Shown: piece after piece, positions 9,341 through 25,637 of the stretch
Numbering within the stretch: position 1 is the first letter of the stretch
Layout of the letters: each line of letters opens with the position of its first letter
From: the human T2T-CHM13v2.0 reference genome, Homo sapiens
Assembly: GCF_009914755.1 (NCBI RefSeq)
Contig: NC_060940.1
Direction: 5' to 3' (one strand)
Length of the DNA: 64,000 bases
Translations under genes and position numbers: made by a program
The notes under the pieces: model-generated
Seen by the model: only the letters and a program-made list of their open reading frames with translations
Told to the model about the DNA's origin: nothing
Databases searched by the model: none

Positions 9341-11260
9341 CCATAGCTAAGACGTATCTTTGCCCATTCGAGCACAAGTTACCTTGTGCAAGGAAAATGT
9401 CCAAATGATGCTCTCTCTCTTGTGATTTCTTTAACAAGACTTGGAACATGTGCAAATGGAATCTTTTCTGTACAAGATAGGATTCATTGCAAACAAGCTT
9501 TAATGCAAATAGTTTAGAAAAGAAAGGACCAGTCTTCACTTTCTGCATTATCCCCACATTTTATTCATTCATCCAGATTACTTCTTCAGTGCCTCAGGAG
9601 TATTCTTCTACACCAGCTGCTGTTAAAATGTACAATGAACTCTAGTCCCAAGGAATACAGAAGTGCTCTTATTACCAGTTTTCCCACTTGTGGCCGCCTT
9701 TGCAAAGATCCATATTCTAATTTAAGTCCCCAACCTCTGAATTTGGTTTTAAGTTTACCTAGTGACTGACTACTCTCTTTATAAAAAAGACCTTATACTT
9801 AATGATCATTTCCAAAGGAGACCACTCCTTAACTTTTACTGCAAACCCAACAAGATGAGACACTTAAACCCAGACAGATGTAACAAAGGATTTTTGTTGT
9901 CTAAGTCCCAAAGTATTATATAGAAAGTTCCTGCTTTTATGGGTAAACTTATTACCTTAATATGTTCTGTGGTTTGCTGTTAACCAAGATTCTCCCATTT
10001 AAAATGCCACAGACCGACCCTCAAGGCAGATCCGAAAGCCTAGTAGTTAGTTGCACTGGGTTGTTTTGACAAGCTACCACACGTCTTAAGTAAATAGTAA
10101 AGCCTTTATTTTTGTGTTAAGAACAGCATTTTGAAAATAAAACCTATCTGCCCATGCTTTACAGCCTTTTAAATTTGTAATATTTATATAGTCGTTTATG
10201 GTACATATTGATTGTCTTGAAATTTCTTTAACTTCTTTTTTATAAGTATGCAACAGTCAGCCGGGGGAAGATAAAGGTACATTATAAAACACACATTAAT
10301 GCATTTAATAAATATATATTATCTATCAAAAGTGAGCCTTAGCTCTTCATCAGTTAATAAAAAGCACCTGCTGAGAACTCCTGTAAGCTGGTATCATCAT
10401 TGCATCATTGGATTATAAAAGCCACAATGCTCCCTTTCAACTTGGGGTTTGGCCTGAGGCGTTCAACTCAGCCTTGGCCAACCGAGACCACCACCCGAGT
10501 TCACCCTTGTTCAGTGGGTCCTGACGGCATCTGGGCTAAAAAAAAAAAAAAAAAAAAGCACTGGGCGCCCAGCTTCCAACAACCAGATCTTCAACTCTGG
10601 AATCCCTGGAGATGCACAGAACTTCCCAGTTTGTAAGCTGTCAGAGCTGACTCCCTTCTCTTCCCACCCTCCACCTCCAGTGGGGAGAAATCCAGGCTAG
10701 AATGACAATTTTCTATTAAAAGGGGGGACAAGAGTGGCTGTTATAGACCCAAAGCGATTTTAATAACCAGACACGGAACAATTTGTGCTTACAATGAGAG
10801 ATTTTGATCACAGATGCTCTCCTCCCGGGTCGTTTTCCCCAAACGAGTCTTGTTTACACACGCAGATCTTAAACAGAGGTGCCATTTAATTTTGTCTTTA
10901 AACCTTGCTCCACGGGGGGCAGCTGGCTGCTACAGTCTCTTGGCAAAGATGTCTCTTGATACTTTTCAGGTGTAGTCATTAGAAAAAGAACAGCTCTCTC
11001 CCTTCTCCTCTCACTCCCGCCTCCGCCCCCATTATGAAGGCGTTCAGCCCACTCTCAACCTTAAAAGCCAAAATAAAACAAAACCCTAAGTGCGATAACA
11101 TATCAGATTTAAAAGGGGGGAAAAAGGTCTCATTAAATGAGGCTTCCCATGGCTCAAAGATGGCTCTGTTCTTATGCTGGGGAAGCACGACTTTCCATGG
11201 CAGCCATTTGTGCTGTGCTCACCTTATATGCTTGGACAATAAAGAACTTAGAAAACGAAC
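9341..11260 (+). other. IQCK: IQCK 3' UTR with several candidate poly(A) signals
   Basis: AATAAA at 10136, 10307, 10356, 11072 and 11238. Which are used cannot be read from the sequence. Confidence 0.6.
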
Positions 11261-11289
11261 GTGTGAATTGCTCCATCGTGTGAATGGTA

Positions 11290-11337
11290 TCAGAAAGCTC
11301 CAAAGGACTCCAGAGAGCGGGGGTGAGTAACCATTTC
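11290..11337 (-). CDS. GPRC5B: GPRC5B alternative distal last exon, coding part (EMVTHPRSLESFGAF*), 404-aa isoform
   Basis: Acceptor cattctcgtgccAG|GAA ATG GTT, phase 0 compatible with exon 3, TGA at 11292-11290. A brain-enriched C-terminal splice variant of Gprc5b is known in mouse; its identity with this exon is recalled, not verified. Confidence 0.7.
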   Translation of the reverse strand, partial: EMVTHPRSLESFGAF

Positions 11338-11764
11338 CTGGCACGAGAATGTGTAATGCTGTCGTTTTTTCACCGGACAGGACCGAGGTGTTTGAAGATT
11401 TCTTTCTTTTCAGAATACCGGGTCCGCATGCAACCGCCCCCACCCCCACCCCAGGTCCTAGCTTCATTCCCTCCCACCCCTCCCCAGGACTCTTACGTTT
11501 TCTGTCCACGCAATGACTGGAACGGGATTCTCTAGAAGCAAGCACATGCTCTGGGCAGAGGCGGGGTGCTTCCGGGGAGGTCAGGTGGGGGTGGCATTCT
11601 GGGGCCATGCGTTTTCTTCCCCATGCGTGGTAACACAAGGAAATGTACTAACTGTTAAGGAAAACTCGAAGGCGGGTCACACAGGGAGGGCCAGATTGGC
11701 CTTACTTTCCCCAGTGCTTTGCAAGGATGGGGTGGGGAGGGGAGACAGCAGAGACTAGGGCCTT

Positions 11765-13291
11765 GAGAAATATCAAAAGGTTTATTGAAACATACTCAGC
11801 TCAGACGTACTGGCTTATGAAGCGGTCAGTCCTCCCCCGGCCCCCAAACACTAACCTTTTTCATTTTTCTTTAAAGGTTAAAGGCTTATGGGTAGTTTTA
11901 TAGAAAAAGCAATGTAGTGATTAGAGTATCTGCAGAAGGACCCACCCTCATTTATACATTCCATGCCGTCAGGTTAAAACTCTGCTTTGAATCGATGCTA
12001 GAGGTTATGCTGGCCAAACAGTGCAGAGAACATGGGGGCTTTGAATGGCCGAGATGTTCGAAATGCTAAATAACAAAGGAATGACTTGCTCAGGACAGAT
12101 GGAAACCATGACAGAAACAATGGGCTTGGAAAAGGGCTGTTTTCATGGAACCTGCAGAAAAACCAAAACAAAATATCCCCCACACCCTCCAAAAGCAACA
12201 AGAAACCCTCATGTGATCCATTCCATCCAGGAATTTTCACCATAGCAACGGAAAGGACCCGAGGTGTCACTGCTTGTGAGGCAGCGAGAGGTCATCTCTG
12301 CATCCTAGTGGGAACCCCTGAAGCCCTGCTAGGTGACATCATCGCGGAAAACCTGCCGTGGTGCCTGCCTTCCAACCTGCCTCCCGGAGGGGCTTTCAGC
12401 TGGAGACCCCATTGGAGCTCTTGAAATGAATAAGGGAATAAAATTGGGAGAGGATTTGGAGATACACCCGTAAGTGTAGGAACAGGGCGAGATGATCAAG
12501 GGAAGAAGGGACTGCTGCCCCAAGCCAGAATATTTCTATGGCTCTACAAGGGAAGGGGCGGGGCCTGTGTTCTCACCATAGACACTAGAGCAAGAGCCCC
12601 ATAGAAGGAACAGTGGTTGATCACTTTCCAAATGTGATGGTCACTTCATCACCCAGAGGGCCTCTTCTTTGGCACATGCCAGGGTCCCTCCACCTCTACT
12701 GGCTATAAAGCTCACCCCACGATTCAGTTGGGCCTCACCTTGGAATCCCACCCACAACCTCCTTAACTCTCCTGACCCCCCTGAAATGTGCAAACCACCA
12801 GGCAAGCCGGTGGCAAAGTCCCCATTTGTCCTCAACGCAACGGTCATCTCCAAGAGGCTACCTGGGGTCCAGCACTTGCTGGGGAGAGGTGATAAGAGTG
12901 GGAGCCCCCCACCTCCAACCAACACCAGTCTGGCCCACCAGCTGTGAATTTGGTTCTGTTCTACCCCCAGAGGATGAAACAGTCTTCCCAGCCACATTTT
13001 CCAGTGAGCCTAATACTATTTGCAATTAGCTTTGCTTTAGTTTGCGGGGATTGAGGTTGGTCTGGTATTACGTGTCTGTGTGTGTGGCAGGGGAGGGGCG
13101 GGCAGTCGGTGTTAGCTTTTCAGTTCGTCAGTGTTCACATTTACACGAAATCCCCTTGGCTAGGATTTCCAAATTTCCTGGCTGTGAGGCGGCCTGGTTC
13201 GGCAACTGTTACCGATTTCTCCCTCAAGAAAGACACAGCCAGGGAGGCAAATCGGTAAGAGAAATTCTGATTCTCTGGAACTTAAAGTCTT
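11765..13291 (-). other. GPRC5B: GPRC5B proximal 3' UTR
   Basis: Repeat-free sequence between the stop codon and AATAAA at 11786-11781. The cleavage site is estimated. Confidence 0.8.
11781..11786 (-). terminator. GPRC5B: GPRC5B proximal polyadenylation signal AATAAA
   Basis: tttatt on the plus strand, ~1.5 kb after the stop codon, preceded by A/U-rich sequence. Confidence 0.8.
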
Positions 13292-13336
13292 TCACCAAAG
13301 GTGTCTTCCTGTGTGACTTGGCGGAGCAGTTGGGAT
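13292..13336 (-). CDS. GPRC5B: GPRC5B canonical last exon, coding part (IPTAPPSHTGRHLW*)
   Basis: Acceptor gttattccAG|ATC, TGA at 13294-13292. Total CDS 1212 nt = 403 aa plus stop, the known GPRC5B length. Confidence 0.98.
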   Translation of the reverse strand: MPTAPPSHTGRHLW

Positions 13337-14628
13337 CTGGAATAACACATAAGGATAACACACTGAGAACTCTGTGCTTTGCAAAGTCAACACTAGAAAC
13401 CGATGCGTAAACAACGCGGCAAAAATAAGTTACCTTGCTTTTACCTAGATGGGTCGAATAATTCCCAGGAGAGGCAGCAATGACTGTGAGTCATGCTGCT
13501 GTGGTTCTTGGGAAGCCCAGCTCCCTTTTCTATAACCATCCACCCGTAAGGAATGTAAGTTCAACTCATTCACTTTCAGTCTTGACTATTTTTTCACACA
13601 CTGGCCTTGAAGGAACCAGGAGGGCTTAAGAGTGACGGATGGGGGCTTTTCTAAGCATATTTATTATAACACACAGGCCGAATGCTTGTGAATCAGGCTT
13701 TTCTTGGCTCGGGACAATAAAACAGCCCAGTCGTTGGCAGGGGGTTTTAAGAATGCAAATCTGTGATTCTGTCTTTGAGCCTGTTCCAAACCAATGCAAA
13801 CCAATGCCTAGCATACCATTCAAAAGGCCAGGAAAACCTAAATTCCCTCTAGAGATCAAAGACCATCCCTGATTTACATAAAAAAAAAAAAAAAAAGAAG
13901 AATGCTCAGGTTGAGTTATGGAGTTGGAACATGATATAAAGAATGGAAACCCAATTTACACATGTAAACTGGCTCAGACCTTGTTTCTGAAAGAAGCATG
14001 TAGCTATGTTTGGAAATTAAATGTGGAGATGAGAGTGCATCTTTGGATTGCTGGAGAAACAAAATGGTGTCATTCCAAGGAGGCAAACGTAAACAATGAC
14101 AATTCTGCTGAAGGTCTGTTTGGCATCAGATAGTAGTAAACCTGCTTCTGTGTTTGAGGGAGAGAAACAGTAACTGCTTCAATTTCTTAAGACATCTCTT
14201 AGGGAATGGGAGAACCTGGTACCCAGCTGGGGAGGAGTCAACAGAGGGGTGACCGGGGACCTTAAACTAGGCTGGATGTCAGCAAAATCTGCTAGGGGCG
14301 CTCCATCATTCTGGGCTTTTTCCAAAAGTCACCTCCCAGGGACAGAGTGAAAGCCAAATAATTCACTGGGTCCAACAGCCTCAAGGATTACAAACTCTTT
14401 CAAACGAATCTACAGATGGTTTTCTAAATAGAGGTGGGTATTCTGTGTGTGGAGAAAAGGGGTAGAAAGGGAAAGAAGAAAAATAAAAGCATTGCATGCG
14501 TTTGAGCTGTGGCGGTCCTTGCAGGCCACATGGGCAGCCTCCATGGAGGAGTATGTCCCTGTTGAAGCTGCTCCCCGACACCGTAGACTCCTAGGCTTCC
14601 TACCCCCACATCACATCTTGATACTTAC

Positions 14629-14765
14629 GGTCCCACCGTTGAGCACGACGGCCATCTCAGTTGGCTGATACACGTTGCTTCTAAACGGAGCGCTGGGTCT
14701 TTTCCCCAAGCTGCCACTGGGTCTTTTTCCCAAGCTGCCGTTGGGAAATCCTGCTGTTCGGAGAG
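14629..14765 (-). CDS. GPRC5B: GPRC5B coding exon 3 (ALRTAGFPNGSLGKRPSGSLGKRPSAPFRSNVYQPTEMAVVLNGGT)
   Basis: Acceptor ccctccctcccccAG|CT and donor ACC|GTAAGT. 137 nt, continues the phase of exon 2 (1030+137=1167 nt, 389 codons). Confidence 0.98.
14692..14739 (-). repeat. GPRC5B: 24-bp coding tandem duplication (GSLGKRPS x2)
   Basis: gctgggtcttttccccaagctgcc / actgggtctttttcccaagctgcc, 22/24 identical. Confidence 0.95.
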
Positions 14766-24607: not shown

Positions 24608-25637
24608 CTGCATTGTGTTCATCCATGGAGAAGGCCTTGTTCTCCATATAGGCCCGCGGCAGCTGCACGTCCTCCTCGAAGGCCGTCTCCCGCATCCTGG
24701 GCTGCGACGTGTCGAAGTAGTTGGGCGTGTTCTCCTGCAGGGCTGGCAGAAGGGTGCAGTGGATCTCAGGGATGGCGTGGAAGATGACGAAGACCCAGCC
24801 GCTGGCCGCCAGCGTGATGGCCAAGGTGGGGTCGTTCCAGGCATCCCCCTGCTGCAGCTTGACATTGCCGAAGAGGTACATGGTCATCCAGGCCACCCAG
24901 ATGAGCACAGAGAGGAAGGCTGTGATGAGGAGGAAGGCCCCGTTCAGCTTCCACCTCTTGAACTTGCCGCACAGAGTGAAGAGGGCCAGCCCCAGGGTGA
25001 CCACAAGCAGTACCATGTCGTAGATGAGGGCCATCACAAAGTCCATGGGCTCGTAGGCGCAGGCTGGCCTTGTGTCACGCAGCACGGTGAGCACCAGCCA
25101 CTCCACAGCGATGATGACTTGCACCAGCATCAGGCACAGCGCCAGGCCCACCAGCTGCCAGCCCGCGGGGCCCGTGCCATGCCGCACCAGCCTCCGCACG
25201 CGCCATGCCTGGCTCAGCAGGCAGGAGAAGCAGAGCGCAAAGAGGACGCCCCAGAGGAAGCGGCGGACAGAGCAGATGGTCTCGTCCTCCTGGATGATGA
25301 AGGCAAACGTCAGCCCAAAGAGGCCCAGGGTCCCCAGGAGGAACAGAAAGTGGAGGCCCACAGGGCTCTTCTTCTCCTTCTCCTTGATGAAGGGCAGCCG
25401 CACCAGGAGGATGAGCATCAGGAGCAGTGTGATCAGGGCGCCCGCCCCGGCCACCGCCTCCACCACAATGCCCCAGATGGCGTCCAGGTCGCACAGGGAC
25501 ACGTACTGAGGGAGGAGGTCCAGCCCACAGCCTCGGGATGTGCTGGCGTTTTCAGAGGCCACCGAGGTGATCACGAAGAGCAGGAGGAAGGTGAGCACCT
25601 GGTGAGCTCTCATCTTTCTCTCTGATGCCACGAACAT
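24608..25637 (-). CDS. GPRC5B: GPRC5B coding exon 2 (codons 1-344: signal peptide, 7TM domain, start of the cytoplasmic tail)
   Basis: Translates MFVASERKMRAHQVLTFLLLFVITSVAS...MDEHNA with seven hydrophobic segments, matching GPRC5B. Acceptor tttctAG|A-ATG (exon starts at 25638) and donor GCAG|GTAAAG at 24608/24607. 1030 coding nt, phase 1. Confidence 0.99.

What the first reader, a model, noticed from the sequence alone, without database searches (positions are those of the whole stretch)
11290..14697. Last-exon choice in GPRC5B would toggle a PTAP late-domain motif (candidate ESCRT/exosome sorting switch)
Seen: the canonical last exon encodes I-P-T-A-P-P (PTAP codons 13333-13322) and constitutive exon 3 encodes R-P-S-A-P-F (14697-14686). 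The distal exon (EMVTHPRSLESFGAF*) has no such motif. Established: P(T/S)AP binds the TSG101 UEV domain of ESCRT-I, and GPRC5B is released in exosomes. Inference: the short-UTR isoform has two TSG101 sites and the distal isoform one, so splicing could set vesicle export versus cell retention while keeping Tyr376 (NVYQP) in both.
Basis: partly seen in the sequence, partly recalled or inferred. Interest (0 to 1): 0.8.

Follow-up and report, generated by a model that had tools for sequence, protein, structure and literature searches.

The report
GPRC5B tail splice removes PTAP motif
A known brain-enriched splice form of the human receptor GPRC5B swaps a very old tail motif that binds the vesicle-budding protein TSG101 for a tail without it, so the two forms may be sorted into vesicles differently, though nobody has tested this.

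Summary
The sequence observation holds at the stated coordinates. PSAP is aa 367-370 and Tyr376 lies in constitutive exon 3. PTAP is aa 391-394 in the canonical tail. The peptide EMVTHPRSLESFGAF* sits at 11337-11290 behind an AG acceptor.

Two parts are already published. The "distal exon" is an alternative 3' acceptor about 2 kb inside the last exon. It was described as brain-enriched Gprc5b_v2 by Cool 2010. A proteome-wide phage display screen selected three overlapping GPRC5B peptides, all containing PTAP, with the TSG101 UEV domain as bait. No peptide containing PSAP was listed.

New here:
- The distal motif is P[TS]APP in 51 of 51 canonical tails, from sharks to human.
- 39 of 51 carry an overlapping PPxY. 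The 10 named tails that lack it (PPSH) are all Euarchontoglires, human included.
- PSAP is less conserved, 65 of 77.
- v2 needs read-through of the proximal poly(A) signal.

My searches found no paper linking the splice choice to ESCRT binding. The switch in binding capacity is likely real. Its effect on vesicle export is untested. This is a new member of a known kind, of moderate interest.

The parts
24608..25637 (-). GPRC5B exon 2 coding part (aa 1-343 plus the first base of codon 344). It holds the 7-transmembrane core.
   Evidence: Translated (P0001). Orthologues carry the precomputed Pfam domain PF00003.
14629..14765 (-). Constitutive exon 3 (aa 344-389), shared by both tails. It ends on a codon boundary, with a GT donor at 14628-14627.
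14693..14739 (.). 24-bp tandem duplication, 2 copies at 95% identity. It encodes the doubled GSLGKRPS unit whose second copy runs into PSAP.
   Evidence: The unit is single in marsupial and sauropsid orthologues and expanded in Glires.
14686..14697 (-). PSAP codons (aa 367-370), the proximal candidate TSG101 motif, present in both isoforms.
   Evidence: P[TS]AP at this site in 65 of 77 orthologue models. No peptide with it in the TSG101 UEV phage display files.
14668..14670 (-). Tyr376 codon (tat) within NVYQP, present in both isoforms.
   Evidence: The surrounding columns are invariant in 27 of 27 distinct tails.
13292..13336 (-). Canonical (v1) last coding part: IPTAPPSHTGRHLW plus the stop codon.
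   Evidence: The acceptor tract has 14 of 20 pyrimidines.
13322..13333 (-). PTAP codons (aa 391-394), the distal motif, present in v1 only.
   Evidence: P[TS]APP in 51 of 51 canonical tails. Three overlapping peptides selected by TSG101 UEV.
13313..13315 (-). His397 codon (cac), at the position that is Tyr in most vertebrates. The ancestral PPxY is lost in human.
   Evidence: 39 of 51 tails have PPxY and 12 of 51 have PPxH. Lineages of four of the species were checked.
11781..11786 (-). AATAAA proximal poly(A) signal, just before the RefSeq alternative 3' end at 11763. It lies upstream of the v2 acceptor in the direction of transcription.
   Evidence: plus the gene table supplied with the finding.
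11338..11339 (-). AG of the alternative (v2) 3' acceptor inside the terminal exon.
   Evidence: 12 of 20 pyrimidines upstream. Orthologue models place the junction at the same point.
11290..11337 (-). v2 coding part: EMVTHPRSLESFGAF plus the stop codon. It has no P[TS]AP.
   Evidence: The primer Gprc5b-e of Cool 2010 matches 11296-11315. Similar tails occur in 4 rodent and 5 marsupial models.
9499..9504 (-). ATTAAA distal poly(A) signal before the transcript end at 9483. It is needed for v2 mRNA.
   Evidence: plus the gene table supplied with the finding.

Best explanation
GPRC5B makes two C-terminal tails by choosing between two 3' acceptors of its last exon. The canonical tail (v1) ends in a P(T/S)AP late-domain-type motif that is very old. 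It is invariant from sharks to human and was ancestrally fused to a PPxY. This motif can bind the UEV domain of TSG101 (ESCRT-I). The other tail (v2) is brain-enriched, is found in therian mammals, and needs read-through to the distal poly(A) site. It replaces those 14 residues with 15 residues that lack the motif.

The most likely consequence is that v1 can recruit ESCRT-I directly and is favoured for entry into intraluminal or extracellular vesicles, for release or for breakdown. v2 depends on other routes and stays longer on the cell.

Shown: the sequence, the splice form, the conservation, and in vitro selection of the PTAP peptides by TSG101 UEV.

Inferred: that the motif is used in cells, and that the isoforms are sorted differently.
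For: - Sequence and frame.
- The v2 splice form was sequenced in mouse and detected in human frontal cortex. It rises with neuronal maturation (Cool 2010; sections read, passages). The published primer maps into the v2 coding part.
- TSG101 UEV(1-145) selected GPRC5B peptides 380-395 (confidence 4), 384-399 (3) and 388-403 (2). Two of the three were selected again from the endomembrane sublibrary, and the rows carry the annotation LIG_PTAP_UEV_1 (Benz 2022 supplements; scoring scheme).
- No other bait appears in the 3 GPRC5B rows of the main hit table.
- 51 of 51 canonical tails have P[TS]APP. The second motif position shows only T (15) or S (12) among 27 distinct tails.
- An antibody raised against the v1 tail peptide detects GPRC5B in astrocyte-derived vesicles from C57BL/6J brain.
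- GPRC5B enters intraluminal vesicles and exosomes.
- Frogs show a second, unrelated alternative tail that also drops the motif.
Against: - No experiment links the motif or the isoform to sorting.
- Known controls of GPRC5B release act elsewhere: syntaxin 3 ubiquitination, LMAN2 and SIRT2.
- Cool 2010 saw both isoforms at the plasma membrane with similar neurite effects.
- 129/Sv mice make little v2 in brain. The paper considers their low v2 unlikely to explain the knockout's learning deficit.
- v2 keeps PSAP367, which may still bind TSG101. The phage screen recovers only about 19% of known motifs, so its silence on PSAP is weak evidence.
- Phage display is done in vitro, and the paper itself calls its precision modest.
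- The whole last 33 residues are highly conserved, so conservation is not specific to the motif.
- The 3' UTR is conserved enough to keep another peptide-like stretch across placentals. The amino-acid similarity of v2 tails alone therefore does not prove coding constraint.
Confidence: 0.5

Rival explanations
1. The conserved tail works mainly through partners other than TSG101. Candidates are NEDD4-family WW domains on the ancestral PPxY, or a reader of the invariant G-R-x-x-W C-terminus. On this view the splice switch matters because it removes those contacts, adds a v2-specific one, or changes the 3' UTR. TSG101 binding would then be an in vitro side effect.
For: - 39 of 51 tails carry PPxY overlapping the motif, and G, R and W of the last five residues are invariant in 27 of 27 distinct tails.
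- Cool 2010 proposed a PDZ-type contact for v2.
- v2 splicing removes about 2 kb of 3' UTR.
- P-x-x-P is also a generic proline-rich ligand (established knowledge).
Against: - Human and the other Euarchontoglires lost the PPxY tyrosine but kept P-T-A-P intact.
- Positions P, A and P upstream of PPxY are invariant, and position 2 is only T or S. That is what UEV binding needs and WW binding does not (motif definitions).
- NEDD4 WW4 and YAP1 WW1 were baits in the same screen and do not appear in the three GPRC5B rows of the hit table.
- The TEMAV motif proposed by Cool lies in exon 3, which both human isoforms share.
Confidence: 0.2
2. The motif is used by ESCRT-I, but for lysosomal down-regulation rather than export. 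v1 would be the short-lived form and v2 a stabilised neuronal surface receptor. Vesicle release of GPRC5B would be overflow from the same multivesicular bodies.
For: - ESCRT recognition can lead either to lysosomal breakdown or to exosome release (introduction passage).
- The ancestral PPxY points to ubiquitin-ligase recruitment (WW motif).
- v2 rises in mature neurons.
Against: - GPRC5B is abundant in urinary, kidney-cell and astrocyte vesicles.
- Protein bearing the v1 tail is detected in vesicles.
- No half-life data for either isoform were found.
Confidence: 0.2
3. v2 is a low-value by-product. When neurons use the distal poly(A) site, a weak cryptic acceptor in the long 3' UTR becomes available. 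The resulting protein difference has no selected function.
For: - The acceptor is weaker than the canonical one, 12 versus 14 of 20 pyrimidines.
- 129/Sv brains make little v2.
- RefSeq lists no such human transcript (gene table supplied with the finding).
- The 3' UTR keeps other peptide-like stretches across placentals.
Against: - v2 is the predominant brain form in C57BL/6J and is strongly expressed in human frontal cortex.
- The same junction, an open frame and 9 of 15 identical residues are kept between human and marsupial models.
- v2 is developmentally regulated.
Confidence: 0.1

Closest known systems
Gprc5b_v1 / Gprc5b_v2 splice variants (Cool et al. 2010, PLoS One, PMC2859937)
   Same: This is the same event. 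It is an alternative 3' acceptor about 2 kb inside exon 4, giving 14 versus 15 unique residues. It is brain-enriched and is seen in human cortex. The published primer maps to 11296-11315.
   Different: A word search of that paper gave 0 hits for SH3, proline, vesic- or endosom-, and it is not among the papers that hold GPRC5B together with PTAP. It proposed a PDZ-type ligand TEMAV, which in human lies in the shared exon 3.
Viral late domains: HIV-1 p6 PTAP and the overlapping PTAP/PPxY of Ebola VP40
   Same: The core P(T/S)AP is followed by P, as in HIV PTAPP. In most vertebrates GPRC5B has an overlapping P[TS]APPxY arrangement like that of VP40. Both bind the TSG101 UEV domain.
   Different: This is a cellular seven-pass receptor tail, not a viral matrix or Gag protein. 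Human GPRC5B lost the PPxY tyrosine. No budding or release assay exists for it. The exact VP40 sequence is recalled; the review passages I read state only that the two motifs overlap.
Galectin-3 P(S/T)AP-Tsg101 route into exosomes
   Same: A cellular cargo uses its own P(S/T)AP to bind Tsg101 directly and be released in exosomes, with a requirement for Tsg101 and Vps4a (passage read).
   Different: Galectin-3 is a soluble cytosolic lectin, and its dependence on the motif was shown by experiment. GPRC5B is a membrane cargo with only in vitro peptide selection. The splice toggle has no counterpart there.
HRS (ESCRT-0) PSAP and ARRDC1 PSAP as cellular recruiters of TSG101
   Same: Cellular P(S/T)AP motifs hand ESCRT-I to endosomal or plasma-membrane budding sites (HRS: abstracts in the search listing).
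   Different: These are adaptors, not cargo receptors.
C-terminal splice variants of class C receptors (mGluRs) and splice-toggled short linear motifs in general
   Same: Alternative last exons change tail motifs and thereby trafficking or scaffolding (discussion of Cool 2010).
   Different: Here the toggled motif is an ESCRT-I ligand. I found no described case of this for a GPCR, but my searches covered GPRC5B only.

Membership tests
P(T/S)AP late-domain-type TSG101 UEV ligand (ELM class LIG_PTAP_UEV_1) | Core tetrapeptide P-[TS]-A-P | tested here: met
   PTAP at aa 391-394 and PSAP at aa 367-370.
P(T/S)AP late-domain-type TSG101 UEV ligand (ELM class LIG_PTAP_UEV_1) | Direct binding of the distal motif (PTAP391) to the TSG101 UEV domain | not testable with these tools
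   Published phage display data read here: three overlapping peptides at confidence 4, 3 and 2. I found no affinity measurement or pull-down.
P(T/S)AP late-domain-type TSG101 UEV ligand (ELM class LIG_PTAP_UEV_1) | Direct binding of the proximal motif (PSAP367) to the TSG101 UEV domain | not testable with these tools
   No peptide containing it appears in the 15 supplementary files (file 15 was cut when stored). I could not confirm that such peptides were in the library. The screen's recall is about 19%.
P(T/S)AP late-domain-type TSG101 UEV ligand (ELM class LIG_PTAP_UEV_1) | Motif-level conservation in orthologues | tested here: met
   Distal motif: 51 of 51 canonical tails, with only T or S at position 2. 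Proximal motif: 65 of 77, absent in 4 of 4 cartilaginous fishes and in the coelacanth.
P(T/S)AP late-domain-type TSG101 UEV ligand (ELM class LIG_PTAP_UEV_1) | Located in a cytosolic, accessible, disordered region | tested here: inconclusive
   The motif lies 10 residues from the C-terminus, after the 7tm_3 core (PF00003). The region was tiled in a library of disordered regions. Topology is inferred from standard GPCR orientation. No topology or disorder prediction was run.
P(T/S)AP late-domain-type TSG101 UEV ligand (ELM class LIG_PTAP_UEV_1) | Sorting or release depends on the motif and on TSG101/VPS4 | not testable with these tools
   No such experiment was found.
PPxY late domain / WW-domain ligand | P-P-x-Y core | tested here: not met
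   Human has P-P-S-H, with His397 at 13315-13313. The core is met in 39 of 51 orthologue tails. No WW bait appears in the GPRC5B rows.
Gprc5b_v2 splice isoform (Cool 2010) | Alternative 3' acceptor about 2 kb into exon 4, with a 15-residue unique tail against 14 in v1 | tested here: met
   The acceptors are 1,999 nt apart (13336 versus 11337). The tails are 14 and 15 residues long.
Gprc5b_v2 splice isoform (Cool 2010) | The published human v2 assay maps to this exon | tested here: met
   Primer Gprc5b-e matches 11296-11315 with 0 mismatches, the only match in the window. I did not see the GenBank record named in the paper.

The most novel reading that the evidence does not exclude
The GPRC5B tail is a cellular counterpart of the overlapping PTAP/PPxY viral late domain, and it is at least as old as jawed vertebrates. 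It lets the receptor recruit ESCRT-I, and ancestrally NEDD4-type ligases, to drive its own packaging into vesicles without relying on ESCRT-0. Therian mammals then evolved a neuron-biased splice bypass, coupled to distal poly(A) site use, that makes a non-exported form. Euarchontoglires, human included, lost the PPxY half, so human v1 is a pure ESCRT-I client. Frogs reached a similar bypass independently.
Probability: 0.2. Interest if true: 0.7.

Novelty: new member of a known kind. Interest (0 to 1): 0.45.

Why it matters
GPRC5B is one of the best-documented receptor cargoes of kidney, urinary and astrocyte vesicles. It is also a gene for a brain oedema leukodystrophy (MLC). Even so, the papers I read describe no signal in the receptor itself that takes it into vesicles.

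A single conserved four-residue motif that is present in one natural isoform and absent in the other gives a clean test with built-in controls. It would also affect how reagents are read. The antibody used in the interactome and brain-vesicle papers I read (Alonso-Gardon 2021; Glia 2026) was raised against the v1 tail peptide. It should therefore miss v2, which is the main brain form in C57BL/6J mice.

The loss of the PPxY tyrosine in the human lineage means that results from non-mammalian models or Laurasiatherian species may not transfer.

Tried and rejected
- **Kwon et al. 2014.** I tried to read the primary exosome paper, but it is not held. What I say about it comes from papers that cite it.
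- **Literature searches for a stated link.**
  - GPRC5B with TSG101: 22 papers, 15 listed, mostly vesicle proteomics.
  - GPRC5B with PTAP as part of any word: 7 papers, all listed. I opened one, where the hit is only an antibody peptide. The other six (four pharmacology guides and two reviews) I saw as listings only.
  - GPRC5B with ESCRT: 26 papers, 20 listed.
  - Names of the v2 isoform: 4 papers. In Passchier 2023, 'isoform 2' means an N-terminally extended form, not v2.
  - GPRC5B with NEDD4, PPxY, WWP2 or ITCH was uninformative. All 15 listed papers of 2,247 had zero GPRC5B mentions.
- **Phosphomimetic phage display supplements.** No GPRC5B entry in the 12 files.
- **Complex prediction of TSG101 UEV with the tails.** Not run. 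A textbook PTAP-UEV pair would probably pass by likeness to solved structures, so a pass would not have changed my odds.
- **Coding constraint on v2.** I considered using the amino-acid conservation of v2 tails as proof and rejected it as sufficient. Another 3' UTR stretch near 12024 keeps peptide-like similarity to predicted tails of hamster and desman.
- **The PDZ idea of Cool 2010 as an isoform-specific feature in human.** Rejected. TEMAV (aa 379-383) is in the shared exon 3.
Full report
**1. Observation**

On the - strand the three coding parts are 25637-24608, 14765-14629 and 13336-13292. They join in frame into a 403-residue protein.
- PSAP is aa 367-370, codons 14697-14686, in R-P-S-A-P-F.
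- PTAP is aa 391-394, codons 13333-13322, in I-P-T-A-P-P.
- NVYQP begins at aa 374, so the tyrosine is Tyr376.
- EMVTHPRSLESFGAF is encoded at 11337-11293 with a TGA at 11292-11290, directly behind ...tcgtgccag.
- Exon 3 ends on a codon boundary, so splicing its donor (GT at 14628-14627) to this acceptor gives a 404-residue protein.

**2. What the "distal exon" is**

It is not a separate exon. It is an alternative 3' acceptor 1,999 nt inside the annotated terminal exon (9483-13336 in the supplied gene table).

This is the published Gprc5b_v1/v2 pair (Cool et al. 2010, PMC2859937; outline, sections 5 and 9, passages).
- The unique tails are 14 and 15 residues long.
- v2 is predominant in C57BL/6J brain and nearly absent in 129/Sv brain.

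The reverse primer they used on human tissue matches the window once, at 11296-11315, with no mismatch. The supplied RefSeq table has no such human transcript. The paper names a GenBank record for human v2, which I did not see.

**3. Coupling to polyadenylation (inference from sequence)**

An AATAAA at 11786-11781 sits just before the alternative RefSeq 3' end at 11763. An ATTAAA at 9504-9499 sits before the end at 9483. In the direction of transcription the proximal signal comes before the v2 acceptor. Transcripts cleaved there can therefore only encode v1, and v2 needs read-through to the distal site. That neurons favour distal sites is recalled knowledge. It would fit the brain enrichment of v2 but was not tested here.

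The v2 acceptor tract is weaker than the canonical one, 12 against 14 pyrimidines of 20.

**4. Does the motif bind TSG101?**

Partly answered in print. In the proteome-wide phage display of Benz et al. 2022 (PMC8769072), the TSG101 UEV(1-145) bait selected three overlapping GPRC5B peptides: 380-395, 384-399 and 388-403.
- Their confidence levels are 4, 3 and 2.
- Two of the three were selected again from the endomembrane sublibrary.
- The rows are annotated LIG_PTAP_UEV_1 (supplement searches; supplement 9 part 52).
- Level 4 means the peptide was replicated, overlapped, matched the motif and had a high count.
- The three rows in the main hit table are all TSG101 rows. NEDD4 WW4 and YAP1 WW1 were also baits.

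No peptide containing the PSAP367 context occurs in any of the 15 files (file 15 was cut when stored). This is weak negative evidence. The screen recovers about 19% of known motifs, and I could not confirm that aa 356-379 were in the library.

**5. Conservation**

A search with the exon 2 translation listed the 120 best of 644 hits. Of these 120, 77 carry the exon 3 anchor around NVYQPTEM. The other 43 are paralogues, truncated models or frameshifted models, and I set them aside.

The 77 tails fall into four classes.

| Tail class | Number of 77 |
|---|---|
| Canonical ending G-R-[HQ]-x-W | 51 |
| v2-like | 9 |
| Read-through into the intron | 4 |
| Other | 13 |

*Distal motif.* All 51 of 51 canonical tails have P[TS]APP. 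For the column counts I used 50 tails (27 distinct) and left out one sole (Solea) sequence with an 8-residue insertion. In those 27, P, A, P and P are invariant and position 2 is T (15) or S (12) only. The motif is present in sharks, rays, ray-finned fishes, coelacanth, amphibians, sauropsids and mammals.

*Caveat.* The whole stretch from R-S-N-V-Y to G-G is just as invariant. Conservation is therefore not specific to the motif. The restriction to T or S is the only motif-specific signal.

*Proximal motif.* P[TS]AP is present in 65 of 77. The 12 exceptions are:
- 4 of 4 cartilaginous fishes;
- the coelacanth, a gar and a caecilian;
- two squamates and one bird;
- one hamster model and one unnamed record.

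**6. An overlooked feature: the ancestral tail is P[TS]APPxY**

Thirty-nine of 51 canonical tails have PPxY overlapping the P[TS]AP. Twelve of 51 have PPxH.
- The ten named PPxH carriers are apes, lemurs, a colugo, rabbit, pika and a ground squirrel. I checked two of these lineages in the taxonomy, both Euarchontoglires. The others I assign to that clade from recall. Two records are unnamed.
- The two named Laurasiatherians with a canonical tail, a shrew and a bat, keep Tyr. So do marsupials, platypus, sauropsids, amphibians and fishes.

The Tyr-to-His change (human codon 13315-13313) therefore most likely arose on the Euarchontoglires stem. No Afrotherian or Xenarthran tail was sampled.

An overlapping P(T/S)AP and PPxY arrangement is what the Ebola VP40 late domain has (review passages). 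Human GPRC5B keeps only the ESCRT-I half.

**7. The alternative tails in other species**

- v2-like tails appear in 4 rodent and 5 marsupial models. They also appear behind an in-frame upstream extension in a sheep record and in one unnamed record.
- Human and marsupial v2 tails share 9 of 15 residues (counted by eye).
- Two frog records share a different alternative tail that also lacks the motif.
- A caution applies. A further - strand stretch near 12024 in the human 3' UTR resembles predicted tails of hamster and desman. The UTR itself is therefore conserved, and peptide similarity alone does not prove coding constraint.

**8. Link to vesicles**

- GPRC5B enters the intraluminal vesicles of enlarged endosomes and apical exosomes. 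Its release drops about 50% with a non-ubiquitinatable syntaxin 3 (PMC5638587, passages).
- LMAN2 and SIRT2 restrain its release (PMC6934595, passages).
- It is the most enriched GPCR in astrocyte-derived vesicles of C57BL/6J brain (PMC13496119, passages).
- That study's immunoblot used an antibody raised against the v1 tail peptide (PMC8369841). Protein with the v1 tail is therefore in vesicles. This fits the hypothesis but is confounded by expression level and says nothing about v2.

No paper I found ties the motif or the isoform to sorting.

**9. Mechanism and odds**

- That v1 and v2 differ in their capacity to bind TSG101 UEV through the tail: about 0.8.
- That this changes sorting into intraluminal or extracellular vesicles in cells: about 0.35 to 0.5.
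- That the outcome is export rather than breakdown: open.

The rivals are set out in the Rival explanations section.

Points against the reading:
- both isoforms reached the plasma membrane and gave similar neurite effects;
- 129/Sv mice make little v2, and the paper considers this unlikely to explain the knockout's learning deficit;
- v2 keeps PSAP367.

**10. Novelty**

The splice form and the peptide-level TSG101 hit are each in print. New here are the connection between them, the deep conservation with T/S-only variation, the ancestral overlap with PPxY and its loss in the human lineage, and the dependence of v2 on the poly(A) site.

Splice-toggled short motifs and cellular P(T/S)AP cargoes such as galectin-3 are known kinds. 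I therefore file this as a new member of a known kind, directly testable, of moderate interest.

Noticed in passing
window 14693-14739: A 24-bp tandem duplication (2 copies, 95% identity) encodes the doubled GSLGKRPS unit just before PSAP. The unit is single in marsupial, monotreme and sauropsid orthologues. It is further expanded, with Gly/Ser-rich repeats, in rabbit, pika and several rodents. These belong to the same superorder that lost the PPxY tyrosine.
   Followed up: partly
window about 12077-11970, - strand: A stretch of the 3' UTR translates to ...PMFSALFGQHNL followed by a stop. It resembles the predicted alternative tails of a hamster model (P0020) and a desman model (P0008). It may be a third alternative acceptor, or simply a well-conserved part of the UTR picked up by gene predictors.
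   Followed up: partly
window 9483-11259: The last exon of IQCK (+ strand, ending at 11259) is antisense to about 1.8 kb of the GPRC5B 3' UTR. The v2 stop codon (11292-11290) lies 31 nt beyond the IQCK end. Nearly the whole v2 3' UTR is therefore complementary to IQCK mRNA.
   Followed up: no
proteins P0055 and P0067 (frog records): Two anuran records share another alternative tail after the same junction, about 17 residues long and containing QFILNQKEG. It has no P[TS]AP or PPxY. Xenopus tropicalis (P0084) has the canonical tail. This may be an independent tail-swapping exon in frogs.
   Followed up: no
proteins P0088, P0090, P0092, P0094, P0096, P0098, P0099 (ray-finned fishes): These fish orthologues carry an extra PSAP near residue 296-316, just after the last membrane helix. 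The human sequence has no such motif there.
   Followed up: no
window 14661-14647 (aa 379-383), - strand: The TEMAV sequence that Cool 2010 proposed as a PDZ-type ligand of the 'unique' v2 tail lies in constitutive exon 3 in human, so both isoforms have it. The human v2 junction creates only a similar T-E-M-V-T.
   Followed up: partly
window 14631-14629 (Thr389), - strand: The last codon of exon 3, two residues before PTAP, is listed as a phosphorylation site in the Benz 2022 supplement. A related study found that phosphorylating the Thr inside a PTAP abolished TSG101 binding, while phosphorylation of flanking positions had no effect.
   Followed up: no
papers PMC8369841 and PMC13496119: The GPRC5B antibody used in the GlialCAM interactome work and the brain-vesicle work was raised against the v1-specific tail peptide. 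It should not detect v2, the main brain isoform in C57BL/6J mice. That may explain the reported lack of a specific tissue signal.
   Followed up: no
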